DNA from: a virus
IMG/VR virus record: IMGVR_UViG_3300017754_002544
Coordinates: 32,001-96,000 of that record
Reading direction: 5' to 3' (one strand)
DNA length: 64,000 nt
This document shows positions 12,197-37,455 of this stretch, piece by piece. The notes under the pieces were generated by a model. That model was not told the DNA's origin and ran no database searches. It saw nothing but the letters and a program-made list of their open reading frames with translations. Made by a program: the position numbers and the translations under genes. The first letter of the stretch is position 1; each line of letters opens with the position of its first letter.

Positions 12197-15100
12197 ATGG
12201 CTTGTCAAATAAAAAGAACAAAAGACGGTAAGATAAATAAAGTAATTGCGCCAAATGGAAAAGAGTCAAAATTATTTAACGCTATCCATGGCAATATATT
12301 TTTAGCAGACGCAGATACTTCATTAAAGATTTATACGAATGCTTATACAAATGAGGTAGAAAAAATGTATGAGGGTTCTGATAAGTATAAATATGATAAT
12401 GGAGAACCTCAATTATTTTACAAGGCACAATCTAATAAAGAGTACGACAACTTAGAAGAGTTACTTATAAATGAAGACTTTGGGCCCGTATCTATGGGTT
12501 TTAAAAGTCCAAAGAATGATAAGTTTACACCTATCGCTAAATTTACAACTAAGGGTAGTGAGAAGAATGAGTTCTTAGCATCTAAAGTTAGAGAAGGATT
12601 TTTATCAGCAGATAGAGAGCTTGGAGAAGATGGTGTAACAAGACTTAAAGGTAAGGGTGAATATACAACTTCAAGAGTTGTTAATGCGACTTTTGCTGCT
12701 GACGCATTTATGGCAGAACTTGGAAGTGCTAAAGTTAAAGTGCTTAATGATGGGACTATTGAAATGGAATTCGCTAATGGATATTCATTAGTAGAAAAAG
12801 AAGATGGTCAAACAGAAGTCATAAGAACTGAGTTCATACCTGAGTATTTAAGAGAGAATCCAAATGTTTCAAACAAGGTAGAACTAGTTACGCAATACGT
12901 AATAGAGCATAACAACCCTAGACCATTGGATGTAGCTCCGGTTAAAGCTAATCCTACAAATTCAGATTTAAAATCTTTAGAGACATCTTTATTTGCATTT
13001 ATAAAAAGTTTAGGATTTACTACAACTACTTTAGAAAACTATAAAAAGAATTATAGAACTAAATATGGTAAGGACCCAGATATTCAAGCTTTAATTGACT
13101 TATCAAATAAGGTTGTAGCATTTAAAGAGGGGAATATATCCATAGAGGATTTGACAGAGGAGGTAGCTCACTTAGCTATTGAGGCATTTTCTGATCAGCA
13201 ATCTATCGAAGATGCTATAAAGAATGTACACTTTCATCCTGAATACGCAGAGTTCTATGAATTCTATTTAGGTAAGTATGCTCCATTCTTTAAAGGAGAA
13301 GCATTAGAAAGACAAGTAAGAAAAGAAATACTTGGTAAAATTCTTAAGAGAGAGTTCTTATCTAGATTCGATGGTAAAAATAAAACTGAAGAGCAAAGTA
13401 GAACAACATCTTTCTTGGGAAGAATATGGGAGTGGTTTACTAATTTACTAAATAATAACGTAAAGACATACCATAGAAGAGCTTTAGATGGTCTTAATAA
13501 AAGAATAGCTGATAGCGTACTTAACAACAACACTAAAGACTTCCAAGCTGAGTTCGATGAAAATGTGAACTTCTTCTATAATGCTATGAGTGATAACTCT
13601 AAGACTATTGAGTCGGAGTTTGAAGCTACTAAAAGAATAATTGAAGATTTATTTTCTAGAGGTTTAGAACAACCAACTCCAAATAAAGCGGAATTAGACA
13701 AACTAGTTGCTACTGGAAATTTTGTAGATGTACTAAGTTCAGTTAATACTATTATAGGTATTGCTGAAAATCAGTTAGATATTCTTGAGGCTAACATCAG
13801 GGAGTCCAATAGAAAAAATGAGCTTATTTCTACAAAGGATACACATAGATATGAAGTACTTAAAAATAATATGATTCCAACAATGGAAAATATTATTAAC
13901 CTACTTCCACAAAAGGCAGAGCAGTTAAACATAAGTGATCAAAACCTACTCAATAGGATGAGAACCACAGTATCTGCGTCTGAGCAAATAGCTATAAAGA
14001 TGTCAAGGATTAATCCACTAATGAACAATGATAAGATAAAGTTTGTGGAGAGAACTGTAGAGACAGAGTTAGCTAGAACAGCTTTAAATGATGAAGAAAA
14101 GGCAGAGTTTAAAAGTACTATTGAAGGTGGGTTTAGAGATATTGGATGGCTAGGAAAAATGTTCGGTATTGCTAGTCATAGTAAGAATCCAATCATTCAG
14201 TTACTACATAGATCTATAACAAAACTTATATCAAATACAAATAGAAAATTCAACTCAACGCTTAATAGCACAATGAGTGAAATAGATAAAAAGAATTTGT
14301 ATAGATTTCAAAGAAGTATAATCCATAGAGACGCAAATGGCAACCTCACTAATTACTTCTTATCACCTAAAGATTATCATAGATATGACCAAGAGCTAAG
14401 AGCTAAGGAAGATTCTATAATTGCAAATATAACTGGAAAATCTTTACAAGATGTACAAAGATTAAGAGATAAGTTTAATCCTAGAGAAATAATAAAGGAT
14501 GAAAATTTATTTAGTACATATAAGGAAGAAGTAAAAAAGTGGAGAGATGAAGTTGGCCAGGAGAGAAGATTCACAGATGAATACTATAAGCAAAGAGACG
14601 CTAGATTTGAAAAAGCAAATATATCTGATGAAACTAGAACCTACTTATCTACTAAGAACGTAGGTAGATTTTCTAGAAGAAAGAAGTACATGAATCCTGA
14701 TGGGACTATTGACTTGAATAAACAAACAGAGGCTGAAAAAATCGAAGACTTAAATGACTTCAAACAGCACTTATCTATAAAGAGTGCATACGATACTTCA
14801 GGCAATTTAAAAGCAGGCATTAGAAGAGTTAAGTATAGTGAATTAAGTGCAGAAGAAAGAGCTCAACTTCCATATACTGTAGACCCAACTTACACAGGTG
14901 AACTTACAGTTTTAGAAAGAGGCCAAGATATTGAAGACTTATCAATTGAATCAAGAAGAGCCTTAGATTTATTTAACCTTGATATGTTGTATAGAGAGGA
15001 ATTAAAATCAAAAGCTAGAAACAATAAGCCAATCCAACAATTCCTTGATAACATTTTAGAGATAGAACGTAAGGGAGAGGTAGCTTACGAGTGGGTATTA

Positions 15101-32327: not shown

Positions 32328-32745
32328 AAATCGCAGCTATATAAAGTTTGTACTTTGAGTTTGAAGTGTTGAATTCGTAAAACCTAGATCCTTTATCCCA
32401 ACCTTGATTTGTTATCTCAGTAATCGTAGTTGTTAACCATGTATACATGTGCCTATATTGAGGGTCTATAATACAACTAAATCCGACTTTAGGTTCATCA
32501 TGTAACTTATTAATATTGAGTCCCCCCAATTCTTCAGAAGACCATTCTACAAATTTAACTTTATAGCCACGAAGTATTTTACCATCACCTTCTCTAATTA
32601 GCATTATAGGTAAGTTTGTGATATCACATACATTACAAACATTAGATATCTCACGAGTTCCTTTTACTCTATGTGGCGTAACCTTTAGACAATTCCTACA
32701 GAATATATTACCAGCCTTCCTTTCTTTTTCTTGTGTCTCTTCCAT
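32317..32745 (-). CDS. Hypothetical Zn-ribbon protein
   Basis: CRNC...H...CNVC. Confidence 0.55.
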   Translation of the reverse strand: MEETQEKERKAGNIFCRNCLKVTPHRVKGTREISNVCNVCDITNLPIMLIREGDGKILRGYKVKFVEWSSEELGGLNINKLHDEPKVGFSCIIDPQYRHMYTWLTTTITEITNQGWDKGSRFYEFNTSNSKYKLYIAAIYEV

Positions 32746-32926
32746 ACGTTATGTTATTTTTAGCTCTTATATCCTTGTGTGTAAACTGCCAAAACTCCCC
32801 TGTCTCATTTATGATTATGGTATAAATCGTATCGGTCTCATGACCAAACTCTGTTACTAACCATATAAATCCTGGACCTTTTGGAGTGACTACCTCTATT
32901 CTATTTTGTGGTTCAAATACTCTCAT
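32708..32926 (-). CDS. Hypothetical protein
   Basis: 72 aa ORF overlapping both neighbours in operon fashion. Confidence 0.55.
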   Translation of the reverse strand: MRVFEPQNRIEVVTPKGPGFIWLVTEFGHETDTIYTIIINETGEFWQFTHKDIRAKNNITYGRDTRKRKEGW

Positions 32927-33593
32927 TATTTACATCTATTATAATTTTTTCATCTCTAGTTACTAATTTTGTGTATAACTCTATATCTCTTGACCATTCT
33001 TGGCCGGTCCAAAATTCAAATCCATGATAATTAGATTTATACAAACAACATAGTTCATAACCACCTAATAGATACACATACTCACATCCTAACAATCTAG
33101 CTGTCTCACATTCATACATCTGTGCAACTGCACCTAATGATAACTTTGGATCAGCATAATCCCATATAAATTGATAAGCTACAAATTGATTACCGAATAC
33201 TTTATATAAACTTATACCAATTAAATCACCATCCCAATATTCAATAACACTACAATCCTTAAATGAGTCTATACTAATATTTCTTTTAAATCCATGATAC
33301 TGACAATACTTTTCATATAAATCAATATACTTTTCTCTCTCAGCAACTACATCACCTGATTGTACAATTACCTTTTTAGAAAGTCTTCTAACTGTCTTGG
33401 ATGGTTTATAGATACTTAAATCAATTCGAGTACTCCTTTCATTATACCATTTACCCTCCCATGGAATCCATCCTTGTTTAAGAGCATCATTACACGACTC
33501 TCCTTCCTCTAGGAGTCCATAAGCACAAGGTACAATGACTTCAATATCACTCACCTTTCCAAATCCTTTTACATGGTCAAATATAACTTTCAT
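32913..33593 (-). CDS. ATE1/Bpt-like aminoacyl-tRNA--protein transferase (GNAT fold)
   Basis: L.QGW, LYEKY...H, WDYADPKLSLG...E...AR.LG..YVYL.G.Y..C..YK..Y...E match the ATE C-terminal pattern. Confidence 0.7.
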   Translation of the reverse strand: MKVIFDHVKGFGKVSDIEVIVPCAYGLLEEGESCNDALKQGWIPWEGKWYNERSTRIDLSIYKPSKTVRRLSKKVIVQSGDVVAEREKYIDLYEKYCQYHGFKRNISIDSFKDCSVIEYWDGDLIGISLYKVFGNQFVAYQFIWDYADPKLSLGAVAQMYECETARLLGCEYVYLLGGYELCCLYKSNYHGFEFWTGQEWSRDIELYTKLVTRDEKIIIDVNNESI

Positions 33594-33608
33594 ATCTATA
33601 AATTAAAA

Positions 33609-33999
33609 AACCCTAGCAGTGTCTATTGATCAGGTAGTCTTACTAGGGGTTGTTACTAGTTATACAGCTCACCGCTTTCCTAGTAACGAAAAGACCAAGG
33701 CTGGTGCGCTGTGCTTACACTTGGGAAGCGTCCTTGGTACTTGACCTATAGAATAGAATCTATAGGGTTAATATCATGGCAACGGATCACCATGAGGTCC
33801 CAGTATTTGCATACTGGTGGGGTAAGTTAACGCTGATTACGGGTTCAGCGTTAGAAACCTTTGTAGGCTCCAGACCATAAGGTAAAGAACAAAAGTTATA
33901 AATAGATAAAGTGCCTGATCCATGTACCACCGTGGGCACTTTTAGTTTATTCGGTTTCCGTTTCATGGTCATCTACTTATAACTAGCAACTAGGGTAGA
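33609..33999 (-). ncRNA. Putative structured RNA: about 10 tandem hairpins
   Basis: GC-richer than flanks; back-to-back stems (e.g. gttactag/ctagtaac, accaagg/ccttggt, taacgctga/tcagcgtta, aaagtgcc/ggcacttt). Confidence 0.6.
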
Positions 34000-34413
34000 T
34001 TATTTATTTTTTAATCTTTCCCTATATCTTTTAGTCATCATATTATTAATTGCTTTGCATTCATCACATCTACACCCCCTATCATAAGCTCCTTTACTTG
34101 GATGTTTTTTTAGTTTTTCAAAATCTATTCCTTCTAAAAGTTTAATTCTACCTTTATCAATGCCATCTTGCCAATTTTCTTTTGGACTCCCTAGAAATAA
34201 ATGTTTCGGATTCACGCACATTCTATTATCACAAGTATGACATACATATAAACCTTCAGGAATTTCACCATGGTGTATCATATATGATACTCTGTGAGAA
34301 TCTATAACTTTACCATTAAGTTTAAATGCTCCATAACCAGTTTTACCTCTAGAACATGCTGTCCATAACCAACAAGTTTCAGTTTTATTTACTTTGTCAA
34401 AAAACCTTTTCAT
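34000..34413 (-). CDS. Free-standing HNH homing endonuclease
   Basis: CWLW...GYG...HRVSY...[20 protein letters not shown]; C-terminal GCRCDEC; own promoter-like TTG-19 nt-TATATTAG upstream. Confidence 0.88.
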
Positions 34414-34503
34414 ATATTTATTTTTGTAGCAACTAATATACGAACTTTTATTTAGAAATCAAGAACAAAAGAGAGAGTATTTCATCTCTCTTAAGCTTTA
34501 CTC

Positions 34504-34587
34504 TAACCGAGGGCAGGACTCGAACCTACAACGTGCAACCATTCATCAGGGTAAGATACCGTTTCCTTATTACGCACTACCTAGTTA
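34504..34587 (-). ncRNA. tRNA-like RNA lacking D arm and normal anticodon arm
   Basis: Acceptor-like stem, U8A9, T arm GTAGG-TTCGAGT-CCTGC, single gtgc/gcac stem with a large loop. Confidence 0.55.
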
Positions 34588-34805
34588 AGTTTCCCACTCT
34601 GAGATTACAAGTGAGTAGTCATATCGGTTTGTTTCCTTTCAAACAACCTGCTGGGCATCCCCGTTAAAAAAAGTCAACACTACTGGGAGGAGGTGTGTCG
34701 TGCTCCTTTATTCCCATGAGACTGGCGTTTAAGGATGTCCAGTCTAATACCCTATCAAGTTTAAATGAGACATTGACAAGTCTGCTGAGTATCTCTTACT
34801 CATTG

Positions 34806-34921
34806 TTATGAGAATAGGACTCGAACCTACACCTCACGGCAGGATTTAATGTATATTCTTAGGACATGACCCCCTACCTTTTACCACCCACCATGTGCTC
34901 TACCAATTAAGCTACCTCATT
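34806..34921 (-). ncRNA. tRNA-like RNA with 51-nt insert replacing the anticodon loop
   Basis: Canonical D arm GCTT-AATTGGTA-GAGC and T arm GTAGG-TTCGAGT-CCTAT, 6-bp acceptor stem, stem CATGG/CCGTG closing 51 nt. Confidence 0.65.
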
Positions 34922-35088
34922 AAATTTGGTAGAGATTTGAACACCAACGCATGATCACCCATACGTCTCGTTTCTTTTGTTTTAGGCACTCTACCTTTGC
35001 AAGTTCGTCTTACCTTGCGCCACCATTCGTGGAATTGCCCGAAATCCCAATGGTTGTCGTTGTACTATCAGACATCAAACGACTGCTG

Positions 35089-35163
35089 TGAGCCTGGAGA
35101 GATTCGAACTCATCAATCTACATTTTAGAAGAATGTTGCATTATCCAGTTATGCTACAGGCTC
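35089..35163 (-). tRNA. tRNA-Arg(UCU)
   Basis: Full cloverleaf GAGCCTG...CAGGCTC; anticodon arm ACATT-CT TCT AA-AATGT; TTCGAAT loop; CCA not encoded. Confidence 0.92.
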
Positions 35164-35242
35164 GAAAAACTACCCCATCATTTTTAAAATACAAGCAAAA
35201 ATAAATGATAGGATAGTTTTATTTGTTGACCTTAAGTTAAAT

Positions 35243-35689
35243 TTATTTTAAACTAGCTGTCTTTATTCTAGTTTTTTTCTTAGGCTTATCTTCTACGATA
35301 ATCTCCTTGATATTTTCCTTAGCATCTTCTTCGTCCATTTCTTCAGTAGAAATAGTTAGACCTGAATCAACATTTTGCTTATGTTGTTCCATTAATCTAA
35401 TTGTCATATCAGATACATTAGATCCAAGACCTGTGACAGTTTGTTGAATCATATTCAATACGCCTTGAATTTGGTGTAAGTTTCTACCTTGAATGTGGCA
35501 AAAGTATATGAATGAATTAAATAAACCACCAGGTATTGTTACCATAGAATCTTTACTATAGGTTTGTTTAAAGTATCCACCTTTATCCAATTCTTCAAAA
35601 AGTTCATCATACTTCTTTTCCATTTCTTGATTCTCTTGTAGCATAGCTTCCTTAAGCTGCTCTTCTGTCATTTGTTCTTTGTTTTCCAT
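35243..35689 (-). CDS. Hypothetical protein
   Basis: 148 aa acidic, helical ORF. Confidence 0.6.
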   Translation of the reverse strand: MENKEQMTEEQLKEAMLQENQEMEKKYDELFEELDKGGYFKQTYSKDSMVTIPGGLFNSFIYFCHIQGRNLHQIQGVLNMIQQTVTGLGSNVSDMTIRLMEQHKQNVDSGLTISTEEMDEEDAKENIKEIIVEDKPKKKTRIKTASLK

Positions 35690-35722
35690 TTTTTAATTTT
35701 TACCAAATCTAATAATAATAAA

Positions 35723-36466
35723 TTAATTCTCAAAATATTTTTTGTAAAATTTGTAATACTCGTTTATTTCTGAAACAGTTTTATCGCATTTATCAAAAAA
35801 TTTGTTAGCCCTCTCAATTGAGTAAGGAGTTTCAATACTAACTATGTCACCTGTCAGTCTTAGTGGATGACTCTCTGATCCATTACCTTTCCTATCTAAC
35901 ATAACAACTCCGGACCAAACAACTTCATTGCCTTCTTCTATTAAGGAGTGAGAATACATAGTTGTTTGTTGGTAGTCTTCACTAGCATAGAAGTCTTTCT
36001 TGTTTTTTATATTGCCAGTTTTAAAATCTATAACTTCAACTTGACCCTTAGCTAATCCATCTAGTTCTGCATCATCGTTAACACCTATTCTAGTTCTATC
36101 TATGAATCCTTGAATGACATATCCTAATGGTCTATGAATAACTATCTCTCTTTCATACTCGCAATTTTCTGGTCTACCTACTTTCATAAGTGTTTCGATA
36201 TCAAAAGTAGATAGTTCACTATATTCATCAACACCTTTTTCAAACCACTCTCCCACTACTGAACCAAAGTGAGTGAAGATATTTCCTGGATCTTTTATGC
36301 CTAAGAAATAGTTCTCTATATAGTCTCCTTTATAGGTAGGGTTATTCCAACTTTCTATTTGACTATAGCTTATTTTAGGAAAGCCTTCAAACTTTTTGAA
36401 TTTATTTTCTCCACTAGGATTATCGTATACCCTAGGCAATTCTATTTTAGATTTTTTAGATGTCAT
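35723..36466 (-). CDS. PD-(D/E)XK (RecB-like) nuclease
   Basis: ISYSQ, E.EI, GFIDR, VIDFKTG, Q..MY. Confidence 0.8.
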   Translation of the reverse strand: MTSKKSKIELPRVYDNPSGENKFKKFEGFPKISYSQIESWNNPTYKGDYIENYFLGIKDPGNIFTHFGSVVGEWFEKGVDEYSELSTFDIETLMKVGRPENCEYEREIVIHRPLGYVIQGFIDRTRIGVNDDAELDGLAKGQVEVIDFKTGNIKNKKDFYASEDYQQTTMYSHSLIEEGNEVVWSGVVMLDRKGNGSESHPLRLTGDIVSIETPYSIERANKFFDKCDKTVSEINEYYKFYKKYFEN

Positions 36467-37455
36467 TTTTTAGATTTTAATTCTTTTATAAACTCTTCTA
36501 CCTCTTTCTTCTTGTGCTCAACAACTTCTTTCGTATCACTACTAAACATTTTATTGTTGATGTACAAACACTTCAAGACATCTTCTAGCATCTCCCAATC
36601 TTTCTTAGGAACTTTTTTACCTTTAAAAGCTTTTATTATACCCTCCTTAACTTCTTGATTTAACTCTTTTGTTATGGATAATTTATGTAAAACATTTCCG
36701 CTTGATACCTCTGAATCTAGATTTAATTTATCAAGATAAACAACATCCTCAAATTGGAAGATATCCTCATACTTGAATCTTCTTATAACATTAAATGTTG
36801 CTATAGCATCTTTATTGCAATAATCAGTAATACCCTGTATGTTACCATTAAAGTATTCTCTTCCCACTTCATCTCCAACCATATCAACTTTAGATATCGG
36901 GATGTTAAGACATACACATAAAGCTTGTAATGAAGAACCTGCACCTGTACCACCAAGTTTCCATAGTGTATTGGTACAAGTATTCAATGTCTCCCATGGC
37001 TTTTTATCGCTATCGTCAAGCAATCTTGGAATAGGAATCTGATTAATTAGATATCTTTTACCAAGGAAGGGATAATCAAAGAACTTTGATGCATGGCCTA
37101 CTAACCTATAGTGGGGGCTGCTACTTGATATTCTATCTAAGAACTCAGATAATTCAGTTAGGATTTTAGCTTCGTCTTCCCCCGAAAAACTTTTGCACAT
37201 TAGATTCTTACCAGCTTTATCTAAGAAAGCAAGACTTACTACACAAACTTTAGAGAATTCAGCATACAATGAAGATGTTTTACTCCATAGTTCTGATAAC
37301 TCTTCAATTGATGGTATCTCACCATCTTGCTTATGCTTGTACTCCCAAGCTTCTTGATACAATTCGGACAAGTCGCTGAAGTTCTCAGCAATTCTAACTG
37401 TCTCGATATCGATAGCTACAAAATGTTGGCTATCTACTCTACTTAACACTTTCAT
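36463..37455 (-). CDS. DEDDy 3'-5' exonuclease (PolB-exo-like)
   Basis: DIETV, GH...FD.PF, YCNKD. Confidence 0.82.
   Translation of the reverse strand: MKVLSRVDSQHFVAIDIETVRIAENFSDLSELYQEAWEYKHKQDGEIPSIEELSELWSKTSSLYAEFSKVCVVSLAFLDKAGKNLMCKSFSGEDEAKILTELSEFLDRISSSSPHYRLVGHASKFFDYPFLGKRYLINQIPIPRLLDDSDKKPWETLNTCTNTLWKLGGTGAGSSLQALCVCLNIPISKVDMVGDEVGREYFNGNIQGITDYCNKDAIATFNVIRRFKYEDIFQFEDVVYLDKLNLDSEVSSGNVLHKLSITKELNQEVKEGIIKAFKGKKVPKKDWEMLEDVLKCLYINNKMFSSDTKEVVEHKKKEVEEFIKELKSKK

What the first reader, a model, noticed from the sequence alone, without database searches (positions are those of the whole stretch)
34806..34921. tRNA scaffold displaying a 51-nt insert in place of the anticodon loop
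Seen: D arm, T arm, U8A9, variable loop and anticodon stem are canonical, but the loop is 51 nt with no U33-anticodon, and positions 1:72 are mismatched. Random decay would not be expected to spare both elbow arms. It is too short for a group I intron. Inference: a natural tRNA-scaffolded sRNA (stable carrier of an antisense or aptamer loop), a decoy for anticodon nucleases or tRNA-sensing defences, or a non-translating aminoacyl donor for the neighbouring ATE-like enzyme.
Basis: partly seen in the sequence, partly recalled or inferred. Interest (0 to 1): 0.72.

Follow-up and report, generated by a model that had tools for sequence, protein, structure and literature searches.

The report
Non-decoding tRNA-shaped joint in phage RNA operon
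A freshwater phage carries a gene that folds like a tRNA but cannot read codons; it most likely serves as a cutting mark between two conserved small RNAs, like tRNA-like "t-elements" of plant mitochondria.

Summary
On the minus strand, 34921..34806 scores 40.4 bits with Rfam's tRNA model (cut-off 29). Acceptor, D, anticodon and T stems are intact, but 51 nt replace the 7-nt anticodon loop and 1:72 is A·A.

It cannot decode: 0 of 18 single excisions restore a 7-nt loop with U33.

The window lies in a complete 124-kb freshwater phage. The element (E1) is one of four tRNA-shaped units in a terminator-ended non-coding stretch: tRNA-Arg | RNA-A (167 nt) | E1 | RNA-B (218 nt) | E2 | terminator | HNH gene.

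RNA-A and RNA-B are conserved, structured RNAs in other phages, and their ends abut tRNA or tRNA-like genes to the nucleotide. After RNA-A, two relative lineages carry a normal tRNA-Met(CAT) where this phage has E1.

Best reading (about 0.5): a t-element-like processing joint, cut by RNase P and RNase Z, whose decoding half became dispensable.

The link to the ATE-like gene is not conserved: 0 of 80 loci. I found no antisense target in the phage. E1 belongs to neither tRNA-like family that this scan noted before on other DNA, but E2 and RNA-B do. E1 itself has no homologue in IMG/VR.

The parts
34806..34921 (-). E1: tRNA-shaped, non-decoding element (the finding). Acceptor 34915-34921 with 34807-34813; D arm 34897-34912; 9-bp extended anticodon stem 34887-34895 with 34835-34843; 51-nt insert 34840-34890; T arm 34814-34830; discriminator A at 34806.
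   Evidence: Rfam tRNA 40.4 bits; pairs counted; no excision restores a canonical loop.
35089..35163 (-). Canonical tRNA-Arg(TCT), first unit of the non-coding stretch.
   Evidence: ARAGORN; Rfam 55.3 bits; orthologous tRNA-Arg in L208/L209.
34922..35088 (-). RNA-A: conserved structured RNA of about 167 nt. It starts right after the tRNA-Arg discriminator and ends at the 5' end of E1.
   Evidence: Aligned with L208 and L214. 40 predicted pairs, 6 with changes on both sides, in 3 sequences. In both relatives it is followed by tRNA-Met(CAT).
34588..34805 (-). RNA-B: conserved structured RNA of about 218 nt. It starts right after the E1 discriminator and ends at the 5' end of E2.
   Evidence: Six other viral loci, L251-L256. 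45 predicted pairs, 5 with changes on both sides. Contigs from RNA libraries cover it, depth up to 718 in run X17.
34504..34587 (-). E2: second tRNA-shaped element, a member of the AGTCAGG-type family that lies upstream of this HNH gene in other phages.
   Evidence: By my reading of the printout, the acceptor AACUAGG/CCU(C)GGUU pairs through changes on both sides relative to the family's AGUCAGG/CCU(C)GACU.
34469..34492 (-). Intrinsic-terminator-like hairpin with a U run, ending the non-coding stretch.
34000..34413 (-). HNH_3 endonuclease gene (137 aa), free-standing, mobile together with the 3' part of E2.
   Evidence: Pfam HNH_3 E = 1.7e-10. 36 related loci. DNA similarity to the window starts at the E2 T arm (34527-34530) in 10 of 36.

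Best explanation
E1 is a tRNA-derived element with a Trp-type scaffold that has lost decoding. It is kept as one of four tRNA-shaped joints in a non-coding stretch that I infer is one transcript: tRNA-Arg | RNA-A | E1 | RNA-B | E2 | terminator.

Mechanism (inferred, not shown): the host's RNase P cuts at the 5' end of E1 and so releases the 3' end of RNA-A. RNase Z or an equivalent cuts after the discriminator and so creates the 5' end of RNA-B. Both enzymes read the acceptor/T-arm stack and the D/T elbow, which are exactly the parts E1 keeps. They do not read the anticodon end, which is free to carry a 9-bp stem and a 51-nt insert. E1 itself would be left as a stable tRNA-shaped by-product, with CCA added by the host. 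The insert is a lineage-specific cargo with no shown function.

Shown here: the scaffold, the loss of a readable anticodon loop, the exact abutment to two conserved RNAs, and that the same two slots hold true tRNAs or other tRNA-like elements in other phages.
Inferred: a single transcript, the cleavages, and stability.
For: 1. All stems are intact and there is no decoding loop.
2. Colinear similarity with relative L208/L209 (71% over 2,566 nt) runs from window 37471 to 34927 and stops at the 5' end of E1. There the relative has tRNA-Met(CAT). L214 has the same RNA-A followed by tRNA-Met.
3. RNA-B begins directly after the discriminator of tRNA-Thr (L252), tRNA-Arg (L253) or an AGTCAGG-type tRNA-like element (L254 = L256, L255). 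It is followed directly by tRNA-Ile (L252) or a tRNA-like element (L254/L256). L251 is cut at the locus start. So the slot needs a tRNA shape, not one particular tRNA.
4. Both flanking RNAs are conserved and structured.
5. A terminator follows E2.
6. In contigs of other phages laid on the stretch, similarity stops at 34806 and at 34593, and the loose ends read as other tRNA ends.
7. The X4 variant keeps the insert, and both of its stem changes preserve pairing. All four changes are transitions, so this is weak.
8. Plant mitochondrial t-elements are a documented case of non-canonical tRNA-like structures acting as RNase P/Z signals (PMC1920247, abstract and passages read).
Against: - No cleavage, no discrete RNA and no transcript were shown. 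The two RNA libraries laid give no cover on E1 itself. One RNA contig runs from RNA-B into a neighbouring tRNA of another phage, so it shows no processing.
- No sigma-70-like promoter was found upstream of tRNA-Arg on the minus strand.
- E1 is a singleton: a 20-nt word of its insert has 0 matches in IMG/VR. Covariation could therefore not be tested, and recent inactivation cannot be excluded.
- A plain tRNA would do the same job, so the model does not explain why the insert exists.
- The 1:72 mismatch and the G·U pairs (one in each of the acceptor, D and T stems, three in the extended anticodon stem) fit some decay.
Confidence: 0.5

Rival explanations
1. E1 is simply a recently inactivated tRNA gene, a Trp-type tRNA hit by an insertion or rearrangement in the anticodon loop. 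It has no selected role, and its arms look intact only because little time has passed.
For: It is a singleton: 0 matches to the insert word in IMG/VR. Relatives carry a working tRNA in the slot. A1·A115 is unpaired and there are several G·U pairs. Folding energy is not better than shuffles. Divergence of E1 in the X4 variant (4 of 104 nt) is similar to that of the neighbouring RNAs.
Against: All four stems pair. The anticodon stem is even extended to 9 pairs. Both stem substitutions in the natural variant keep pairing. Its ends coincide to the nucleotide with two conserved RNAs. This rival overlaps with the best explanation: a dead tRNA can still be a cutting mark.
Confidence: 0.25
2. E1 is a tRNA-scaffolded functional small RNA. 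The 51-nt insert would be the active part (sponge, aptamer or decoy), matured and stabilised by the tRNA body.
For: Many phage tRNA bodies carry inserts of 45-76 nt in the anticodon arm. In the E2 family the ends are near-constant while the middles (31-179 nt, 18 distinct) are about 46% alike, that is, unrelated. The insert persists in the X4 variant.
Against: No complementarity to the phage genome beyond chance. No Rfam family, ribozyme or riboswitch matches the insert at E up to 10. The insert is not found in any other IMG/VR contig. The insert has no convincing fold of its own: the centroid structure leaves it open. The two variant changes inside the insert fall in unpaired positions and say nothing.
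Confidence: 0.15
3. E1 is an intron-containing tRNA gene that is spliced into a working tRNA.
For: ARAGORN with intron search calls tRNA-Thr(GGT) with a 44-nt intron. In other phages the hairpin+ACAGCAA inserts sit at position 29/30, and by eye their removal restores a perfect anticodon stem-loop (L021, L067, L018).
Against: 0 of 18 single excisions that leave 17 nt give a 7-nt loop with U33. Only three products, all with 6-nt loops, have U in second place. No group I intron or ribozyme match. The phage has no RtcB or RNA ligase by Pfam. The ACAGCAA module is absent from E1. No RNA cover was available to look for a spliced form.
Confidence: 0.04
4. E1 is a dedicated, non-translating aminoacyl donor for the ATE_C-like transferase 1.2 kb downstream.
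For: The ATE_C domain is real (E = 9.7e-8) and lies on the same strand. E1 has discriminator A.
Against: The ATE gene travels as a cassette with a 72-aa ORF in 80 other loci (77 of 80 have both), and no other neighbouring gene of this window was found in any of the 80 loci. tRNAs were seen in 6 of 80, none with an insert among the 14 scanned with Rfam, and 0 of 80 carry the tRNA-like motifs. An HNH cassette and another RNA lie between E1 and the ATE gene, after a terminator. E1 lacks the identity elements I recall for ArgRS (A20, C35), AlaRS (G3·U70) and TrpRS (anticodon CCA, G73); this list is recalled, not tested.
Confidence: 0.03

Closest known systems
Plant mitochondrial t-elements (Forner et al. 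2007, PMC1920247; abstract and passages read)
   Same: Non-canonical tRNA-like structures with a well-kept T arm. Their 5' and 3' ends coincide with the ends of neighbouring RNAs, and they are taken to be cut by RNase P and RNase Z. True tRNAs do the same job at other sites of the same genome. The excised t-element can persist as a stable RNA.
   Different: t-elements flank mRNAs in an organelle, and cleavage there was mapped experimentally. Here the flanked molecules are non-coding RNAs of a phage, and nothing was mapped. E1 keeps a full D arm and carries a 51-nt insert on a 9-bp stem.
AGTCAGG-type (class II, Leu-like) non-decoding tRNA-shaped RNAs of freshwater phages, noted before by this scan (e1-6107109, e1-5668738, e1-5410319) and seen here upstream of the HNH gene
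   Same: Same genome neighbourhoods, same role as flank of RNA-A and RNA-B, and the same pattern of a kept acceptor and T arm with a replaced decoding half.
   Different: E1 has a class I scaffold with a 4-nt variable loop. Of 64 bacterial tRNAs that share its D and T words, 42 are tRNA-Trp. E1 shares neither the 5' nor the 3' signature of that family. E2 (34504-34587) is the member, not E1.
Phage tRNA bodies with a hairpin+ACAGCAA insert in the anticodon stem, read by earlier agents of this scan as a Ro60-like protein handle related to YrlA Y RNAs (Rfam RF02553)
   Same: A tRNA body with an insert of about 40-50 nt in the anticodon arm. The D and T arm words are identical, but that is by construction, because I fished these sequences with E1's own words.
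   Different: E1 lacks the invariant C.GC of ACAGCAA and has at best 4 of 7 pairs where the module has a covarying 7-bp hairpin. There is no anticodon loop after the insert. The phage has no TROVE/Ro60 gene. YrlA scores 17.3 bits against a cut-off of 69, and that weak match spans the RNA-A/E1 junction.
Stable RNAs of unknown function in the phage T4 tRNA cluster (species 1 and 2), and free-standing homing endonucleases in phage tRNA clusters such as SegB
   Same: Small stable RNAs with tRNA-like ends, encoded among phage tRNA genes and matured by tRNA enzymes. Endonuclease genes that move together with neighbouring tRNA sequence.
   Different: The T4 RNAs are recalled from memory and were not compared here. 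SegB is GIY-YIG, whereas this gene is HNH_3. SegB is known to me here only from a passage in PMC6409571 that cites PMC2330249.

Membership tests
Decoding tRNA (Rfam RF00005) | Cloverleaf with acceptor, D, anticodon and T stems and conserved D/T loop residues | tested here: met
   40.4 bits against a cut-off of 29; pairs counted.
Decoding tRNA (Rfam RF00005) | 7-nt anticodon loop with U33 and a readable anticodon | tested here: not met
   51 nt between the stem strands, with G as second loop base. ARAGORN in default mode does not call it.
Intron-containing tRNA | Removing one contiguous segment restores a 5-bp anticodon stem and a 7-nt loop with U33 | tested here: not met
   0 of 18 possible 17-nt products; of all 74 products of 16-19 nt, 3 pass the looser filter, all with 6-nt loops.
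Intron-containing tRNA | Recognisable intron or ribozyme fold (group I, hammerhead, twister and others) | tested here: not met
   No such Rfam match at E up to 10 in 33000-37000.
Intron-containing tRNA | Spliced form present in RNA | not testable with these tools
   The two RNA libraries laid have no contig on E1.
Hairpin+ACAGCAA insert family (Ro60-handle reading of earlier notes) | Invariant C.GC within ACAGCAA, 3' of the hairpin (25 of 25 in alignment A5) | tested here: not met
   Not present in E1. The sequence-only model R1 gives the insert 1.1 bits, E = 5.4. In the R2 alignment these positions do not match.
Hairpin+ACAGCAA insert family (Ro60-handle reading of earlier notes) | 7-bp covarying hairpin | tested here: inconclusive
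   R2 aligns GGUAGGG/AUGUCCU there, with about 4 of 7 pairs by my count. E1's R2 score of 43.6 bits exceeds tRNA-Arg (24.3) and E2 (21.9). But the model's scaffold was fished with E1's own D and T words, and it expects an insert of this length.
Hairpin+ACAGCAA insert family (Ro60-handle reading of earlier notes) | Ro60/TROVE protein gene in the phage | tested here: not met
   PF05731: 0 matches in the complete 124-kb genome; the control rings in 2 of 14 genomes.
YrlA Y RNA (RF02553) | Match at or above the gathering score | tested here: not met
   17.3 bits against 69, E = 5.7, partial model 30-81 across the RNA-A/E1 junction.
AGTCAGG-type tRNA-shaped phage RNAs | 5' AGTCAGGTGGCGG... and 3' ACAGGTTCGAATCCTGTCCT signature ends | tested here: not met
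   E1 has neither. E2 does, in diverged form.
tmRNA | Called by ARAGORN or Rfam RF00023 | tested here: not met
   No call in the window. The same tools find tmRNA in L198 and L252.
t-element-like processing signal (function, not homology) | The ends of the tRNA-like element coincide with the ends of neighbouring RNAs | tested here: met
   Shown by comparison only: the conserved blocks RNA-A and RNA-B end and begin at the termini of E1, and at the termini of tRNAs in other phages.
t-element-like processing signal (function, not homology) | Cleavage by RNase P and RNase Z | not testable with these tools
   Needs mapped RNA ends or enzyme assays.

The most novel reading that the evidence does not exclude
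E1, E2 and the hundreds of insert-bearing phage tRNA bodies are one functional class. In this reading, phages use tRNA scaffolds as a plug-in display system. The scaffold recruits the host's tRNA maturation and stabilisation machinery. The swappable insert is the active cargo: a sponge, aptamer or decoy aimed at host factors or tRNA-directed defences. tRNA-shaped joints together with HNH cassettes let phages exchange both the cargos and the RNAs between them.
Probability: 0.15. Interest if true: 0.8.

Novelty: new variant of a known kind. Interest (0 to 1): 0.45.

Why it matters
If the reading holds, a phage strings several conserved non-coding RNAs between tRNA-shaped joints and lets host tRNA enzymes cut them out. 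A joint can then lose decoding and carry extra sequence without harm.

That would extend the t-element and tRNA-punctuation principle, known from organelles, to phage non-coding RNA operons. It would also explain why odd "tRNAs with inserts" keep turning up in phage tRNA clusters and confuse tRNA annotation.

E1 itself is a singleton of uncertain function, so its own weight is modest. The more valuable leads are RNA-A, RNA-B and the HNH-linked E2 family, whose functions are unknown.

Tried and rejected
- Close DNA relatives in GenBank phages: none.
- Relatives through the PD-(D/E)XK neighbour: one distant locus, L003, not useful.
- ATE_C route: 178 homologues and 80 loci. It only showed that the ATE cassette has no conserved link to tRNA-like genes.
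- Ro60/ACAGCAA lead from earlier notes: not applicable to E1. The 19 ACAGCAA words in the genome lie 18 on the plus strand and none in the tRNA region.
- R1 was built without base pairs, because MAFFT put the hairpins out of register. It is therefore only a sequence test.
- I considered a resemblance between E1's insert and L025 (a shared GTAAAAG and GTCATGT at equal spacing, seen by eye) as a sign of descent from the ACAGCAA module. The aligner did not recover it and the motif invariants are missing, so I dropped it.
- I considered the CAU in a small hairpin loop of the insert as a displaced tRNA-Met anticodon, given that tRNA-Met sits in the slot in relatives. I rejected it as uninformative: by my arithmetic about 0.8 CAU are expected in 51 nt and 2 are seen, the stem is weak, and the E1 scaffold is unlike those tRNA-Met genes.
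- Scaffold ancestry among 56 phage tRNAs of the fetched loci: no close match.
- First genome contigs pattern: 0 hits.
- RNA libraries X15 and X17: no cover on E1. This says nothing about expression.
- X15's contig ends with adapter letters at 34795, about 10 nt from the predicted RNA-B 5' end. That is too weak to use.
- No phage RtcB, CCA-adding enzyme or RNA ligase.
- Prior description in print: searches. I saw only the listings' titles and abstract starts. None describes phage tRNA genes with anticodon-arm inserts or tRNA-punctuated phage ncRNA operons, but most subscription journals are not held.
- Papers read by passages: PMC7886860 (nothing on small tRNA inserts), PMC6409571, PMC1920247. 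PMC13096335 was seen only as the start of its abstract in a listing and is not used for any claim here. No supplements were opened.

Full report
**What is there.**
The window is bases 32001-96000 of a complete 124,113-bp virus record with direct terminal repeats. On the minus strand, 34921..34806 matches Rfam's tRNA model end to end: 40.4 bits against a cut-off of 29, E = 4.3e-5 for the window. It has 51 nt where the model has a 7-nt anticodon loop.

A script count gives:
- acceptor 6 of 7 pairs (A1·A115 unpaired);
- D stem 4 of 4, with D loop AAUUGGUA;
- anticodon stem 5 of 5, continuing to 9 consecutive pairs;
- variable loop AGGU;
- T stem 5 of 5, with loop UUCGAGU;
- discriminator A.

ARAGORN misses it by default. 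With intron search it offers tRNA-Thr(GGT) with a 44-nt intron, which leaves a loop without U33. Thermodynamic folding is not exceptional (z = -0.43). DNA contigs of run X3 (not the run flagged as a possible source) carry E1 unchanged. I call the element E1.

**It cannot decode and is not a simple intron-bearing tRNA.**
- None of the 18 possible single excisions that leave 17 nt gives a 7-nt loop with U33.
- No Rfam intron, ribozyme or riboswitch matches the insert at E up to 10.
- The phage has no RtcB, RNA ligase or CCA-adding enzyme by Pfam.

**Context in the window.**
All genes nearby are on the minus strand. Between a 148-aa ORF (35689..35243) and an HNH_3 endonuclease gene (34413..34000) lies about 830 nt without ORFs. 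It holds, in order:
- tRNA-Arg(TCT), 35163..35089;
- a 167-nt stretch (RNA-A);
- E1;
- a 218-nt stretch (RNA-B);
- a second tRNA-shaped element, E2 (34587..34504);
- a terminator-like hairpin, 34492..34469.

No sigma-70-like promoter was found upstream of tRNA-Arg. A single transcript is therefore an inference.

**What relatives have in E1's place.**
The neighbouring exonuclease gene led to a syntenic relative: viral locus L208, with the same sequence in metagenome locus L209. Colinear similarity (71% over 2,566 nt) runs from window 37471 to 34927 and stops at the 5' end of E1. The relative has tRNA-Arg(TCT), RNA-A, then a canonical tRNA-Met(CAT).

A 24-nt word of RNA-A found a third phage, L214. 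There RNA-A is preceded by a tRNA-like element and followed by the same tRNA-Met.

E1 is not a decayed copy of that tRNA-Met: acceptor, anticodon stem and T stem all differ. Bacterial tRNAs sharing E1's D and T words are mostly tRNA-Trp (42 of 64; also Gln 16, Lys 4, Asn 1, Thr 1). The scaffold therefore looks Trp-type. No phage tRNA among 56 in the fetched loci is close to it.

**The flanking stretches are real RNAs bounded by tRNA shapes.**
RNA-A aligns across three phages with 40 predicted pairs, 6 of them keeping the pair through changes on both sides.

A 22-nt word of RNA-B found six viral loci. In these loci RNA-B starts directly after the discriminator of:
- tRNA-Thr (L252);
- tRNA-Arg (L253);
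- an AGTCAGG-type tRNA-like element (L254 = L256, L255).

L251 is cut at its start. RNA-B ends directly before tRNA-Ile (L252) or a tRNA-like element (L254/L256). In L255 about 100 nt intervene, and in L253 no tRNA was seen after it. RNA-B has 45 predicted pairs, 5 with changes on both sides.

Contigs laid from lake metagenomes and two RNA libraries match RNA-B, at depth up to 718 in X17, and lose similarity at 34806 and 34593, where their loose ends read as other tRNA ends. These contigs do not prove transcription or processing. One RNA contig continues from RNA-B into the adjacent tRNA.

**E2 and the HNH gene.**
The HNH protein has 36 related loci. Of these, 35 show DNA similarity to the window, and in 10 it begins at the E2 T arm, 34527-34530.

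In 20 of 36 loci a complete tRNA-like element lies 97-101 nt before the HNH start. Its ends are near-constant (97% alike, partly fixed by my regex). Its middles are 31-179 nt long, 18 are distinct, and their median pairwise identity is 0.46.

E2 is a diverged member. By my reading, its acceptor pairs through changes on both sides relative to the family. E1 and E2 share an identical 16-nt T-arm word, and E2 departs from its family consensus towards E1 there. That may reflect gene conversion, which is an inference.

**The ATE link.**
The 226-aa ORF has an ATE_C domain (E = 9.7e-8) and many homologues. In 80 viral loci (the best 80 of 159 relatives found) only this gene and the 72-aa ORF after it are shared with the window: 77 of 80 have both. 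Further counts:
- ARAGORN finds tRNAs in 6 of 80 loci; the script printed 81 because it counted ARAGORN's summary line.
- Rfam on 14 of the 80 finds six ordinary tRNAs, a tmRNA, a GOLLD RNA and a hatchet ribozyme, but no insert-bearing tRNA.
- 0 of 80 carry the AGTCAGG motifs.

The proximity in this phage is therefore not a conserved association.

**Other insert-bearing phage tRNAs.**
These gave 98 distinct middles:
- 37 hold a CAGC[AG] word, which is the hairpin+ACAGCAA module. Its 7-bp hairpin covaries strongly.
- 61 are a mixed bag: tandem tRNAs, class II variable arms and other inserts.

Earlier agents of this scan read the ACAGCAA module as a handle for a Ro60-like protein (unchecked notes). 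E1 is not of this kind:
- the invariant C.GC is absent;
- the phage has no TROVE gene;
- YrlA scores 17.3 bits against a cut-off of 69.

One result points the other way. The full-length model R2 scores E1 at 43.6 bits, above tRNA-Arg (24.3) and E2 (21.9). I discount it because the training set was fished with E1's own words, the model expects an insert of this length, and the motif positions do not match in the alignment.

**Insert function.**
- No exact word longer than 11 nt is shared with either strand of the phage genome, and 186 of 200 shuffles reach that.
- A 20-nt word of the insert occurs in no other IMG/VR contig.
- A natural variant in run X4 keeps the insert and differs by four transitions: E1 positions 2, 22, 37 and 71. 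The two in stems keep pairing, and the two in the insert lie in unpaired positions. This is weak evidence for constraint on the scaffold and none for the insert.

**Reading.**
The best-supported explanation is that E1 is a tRNA-derived joint, kept for what RNase P and RNase Z recognise, namely the acceptor/T stack and the elbow. It separates RNA-A from RNA-B, and its anticodon end is free to vary. The closest documented analogue is the plant mitochondrial t-element (PMC1920247).

This overlaps with the pseudogene reading, because a dead tRNA can still be a cutting mark. It does not exclude that the insert has a role. No step of the mechanism was observed.

**Limits.**
- Only contigs, not raw reads, could be laid.
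- The host is unknown.
- E1 has no diverged homologue in hand, so covariation in E1 itself could not be tested.
- Literature searches were judged from listings only.

Noticed in passing
window 34922-35088 (-): RNA-A: a conserved, structured RNA of about 167 nt that starts right after a tRNA discriminator and ends at the next tRNA. It is about 80-85% identical in L208 and L214, more than the flanking genes (71%), with 6 of 40 predicted pairs changed on both sides. No Rfam match.
   Followed up: partly
window 34588-34805 (-); L251-L256: RNA-B: a conserved RNA of about 218 nt found in six other viral contigs, preceded by a tRNA or tRNA-like gene wherever the upstream flank is visible (five of the six; L251 is cut at its start). 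Contigs from RNA libraries reach depth 718 in one run. Two loci carry an extra insert of about 50 nt. No Rfam match; function unknown.
   Followed up: partly
window 34000-34587 (-); L215-L250: The HNH_3 endonuclease gene travels with the 3' part of an AGTCAGG-type tRNA-like gene, a terminator and a conserved promoter-like word. The middle of the tRNA-like gene is hypervariable (31-179 nt, unrelated between loci).
   Followed up: partly
window 34816-34831 and 34515-34530: E1 and E2 share an identical 16-nt T-arm word. E2 departs from its own family's consensus at about four positions towards E1, which suggests gene conversion between the two.
   Followed up: no
window 32708-33593 (-); L128-L207: The ATE_C-like gene plus a 72-aa ORF form a two-gene cassette in at least 80 viral contigs (159 relatives found), with otherwise unrelated neighbours. 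In L198 it sits between a tmRNA and a GOLLD RNA. L188 has a hatchet ribozyme nearby.
   Followed up: partly
window 33590-33825 (-): Parts of the non-coding stretch between the HNH and ATE genes (the 'ornate RNA' of another first-stage note) are conserved after tRNA-Met in L208 (78 nt, 81%) and L214 (94 nt, 71%). The HNH cassette therefore seems inserted between the tRNA slot and this RNA.
   Followed up: partly
L004, L016, L018, L021, L025, L067, L077, L088 and others: Phage tRNA genes with a hairpin+ACAGCAA module of about 40-47 nt in the 5' strand of the anticodon stem (about position 29/30). By eye, removing it restores a perfect anticodon stem-loop (for example Val-UAC, Thr-UGU, Pro-UGG). 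Several such genes can occur in one array (L004, L081). The scan has noted this before.
   Followed up: partly
L214 (rc 12592-12715), L252 (between tRNA-Arg and tRNA-Met): Further AGTCAGG-type tRNA-like genes with inserts of 46 nt to over 100 nt sit in the slots beside RNA-A or between ordinary tRNAs. ARAGORN mislabels some of them as tRNA-Leu, Ser, Gln or Arg.
   Followed up: no
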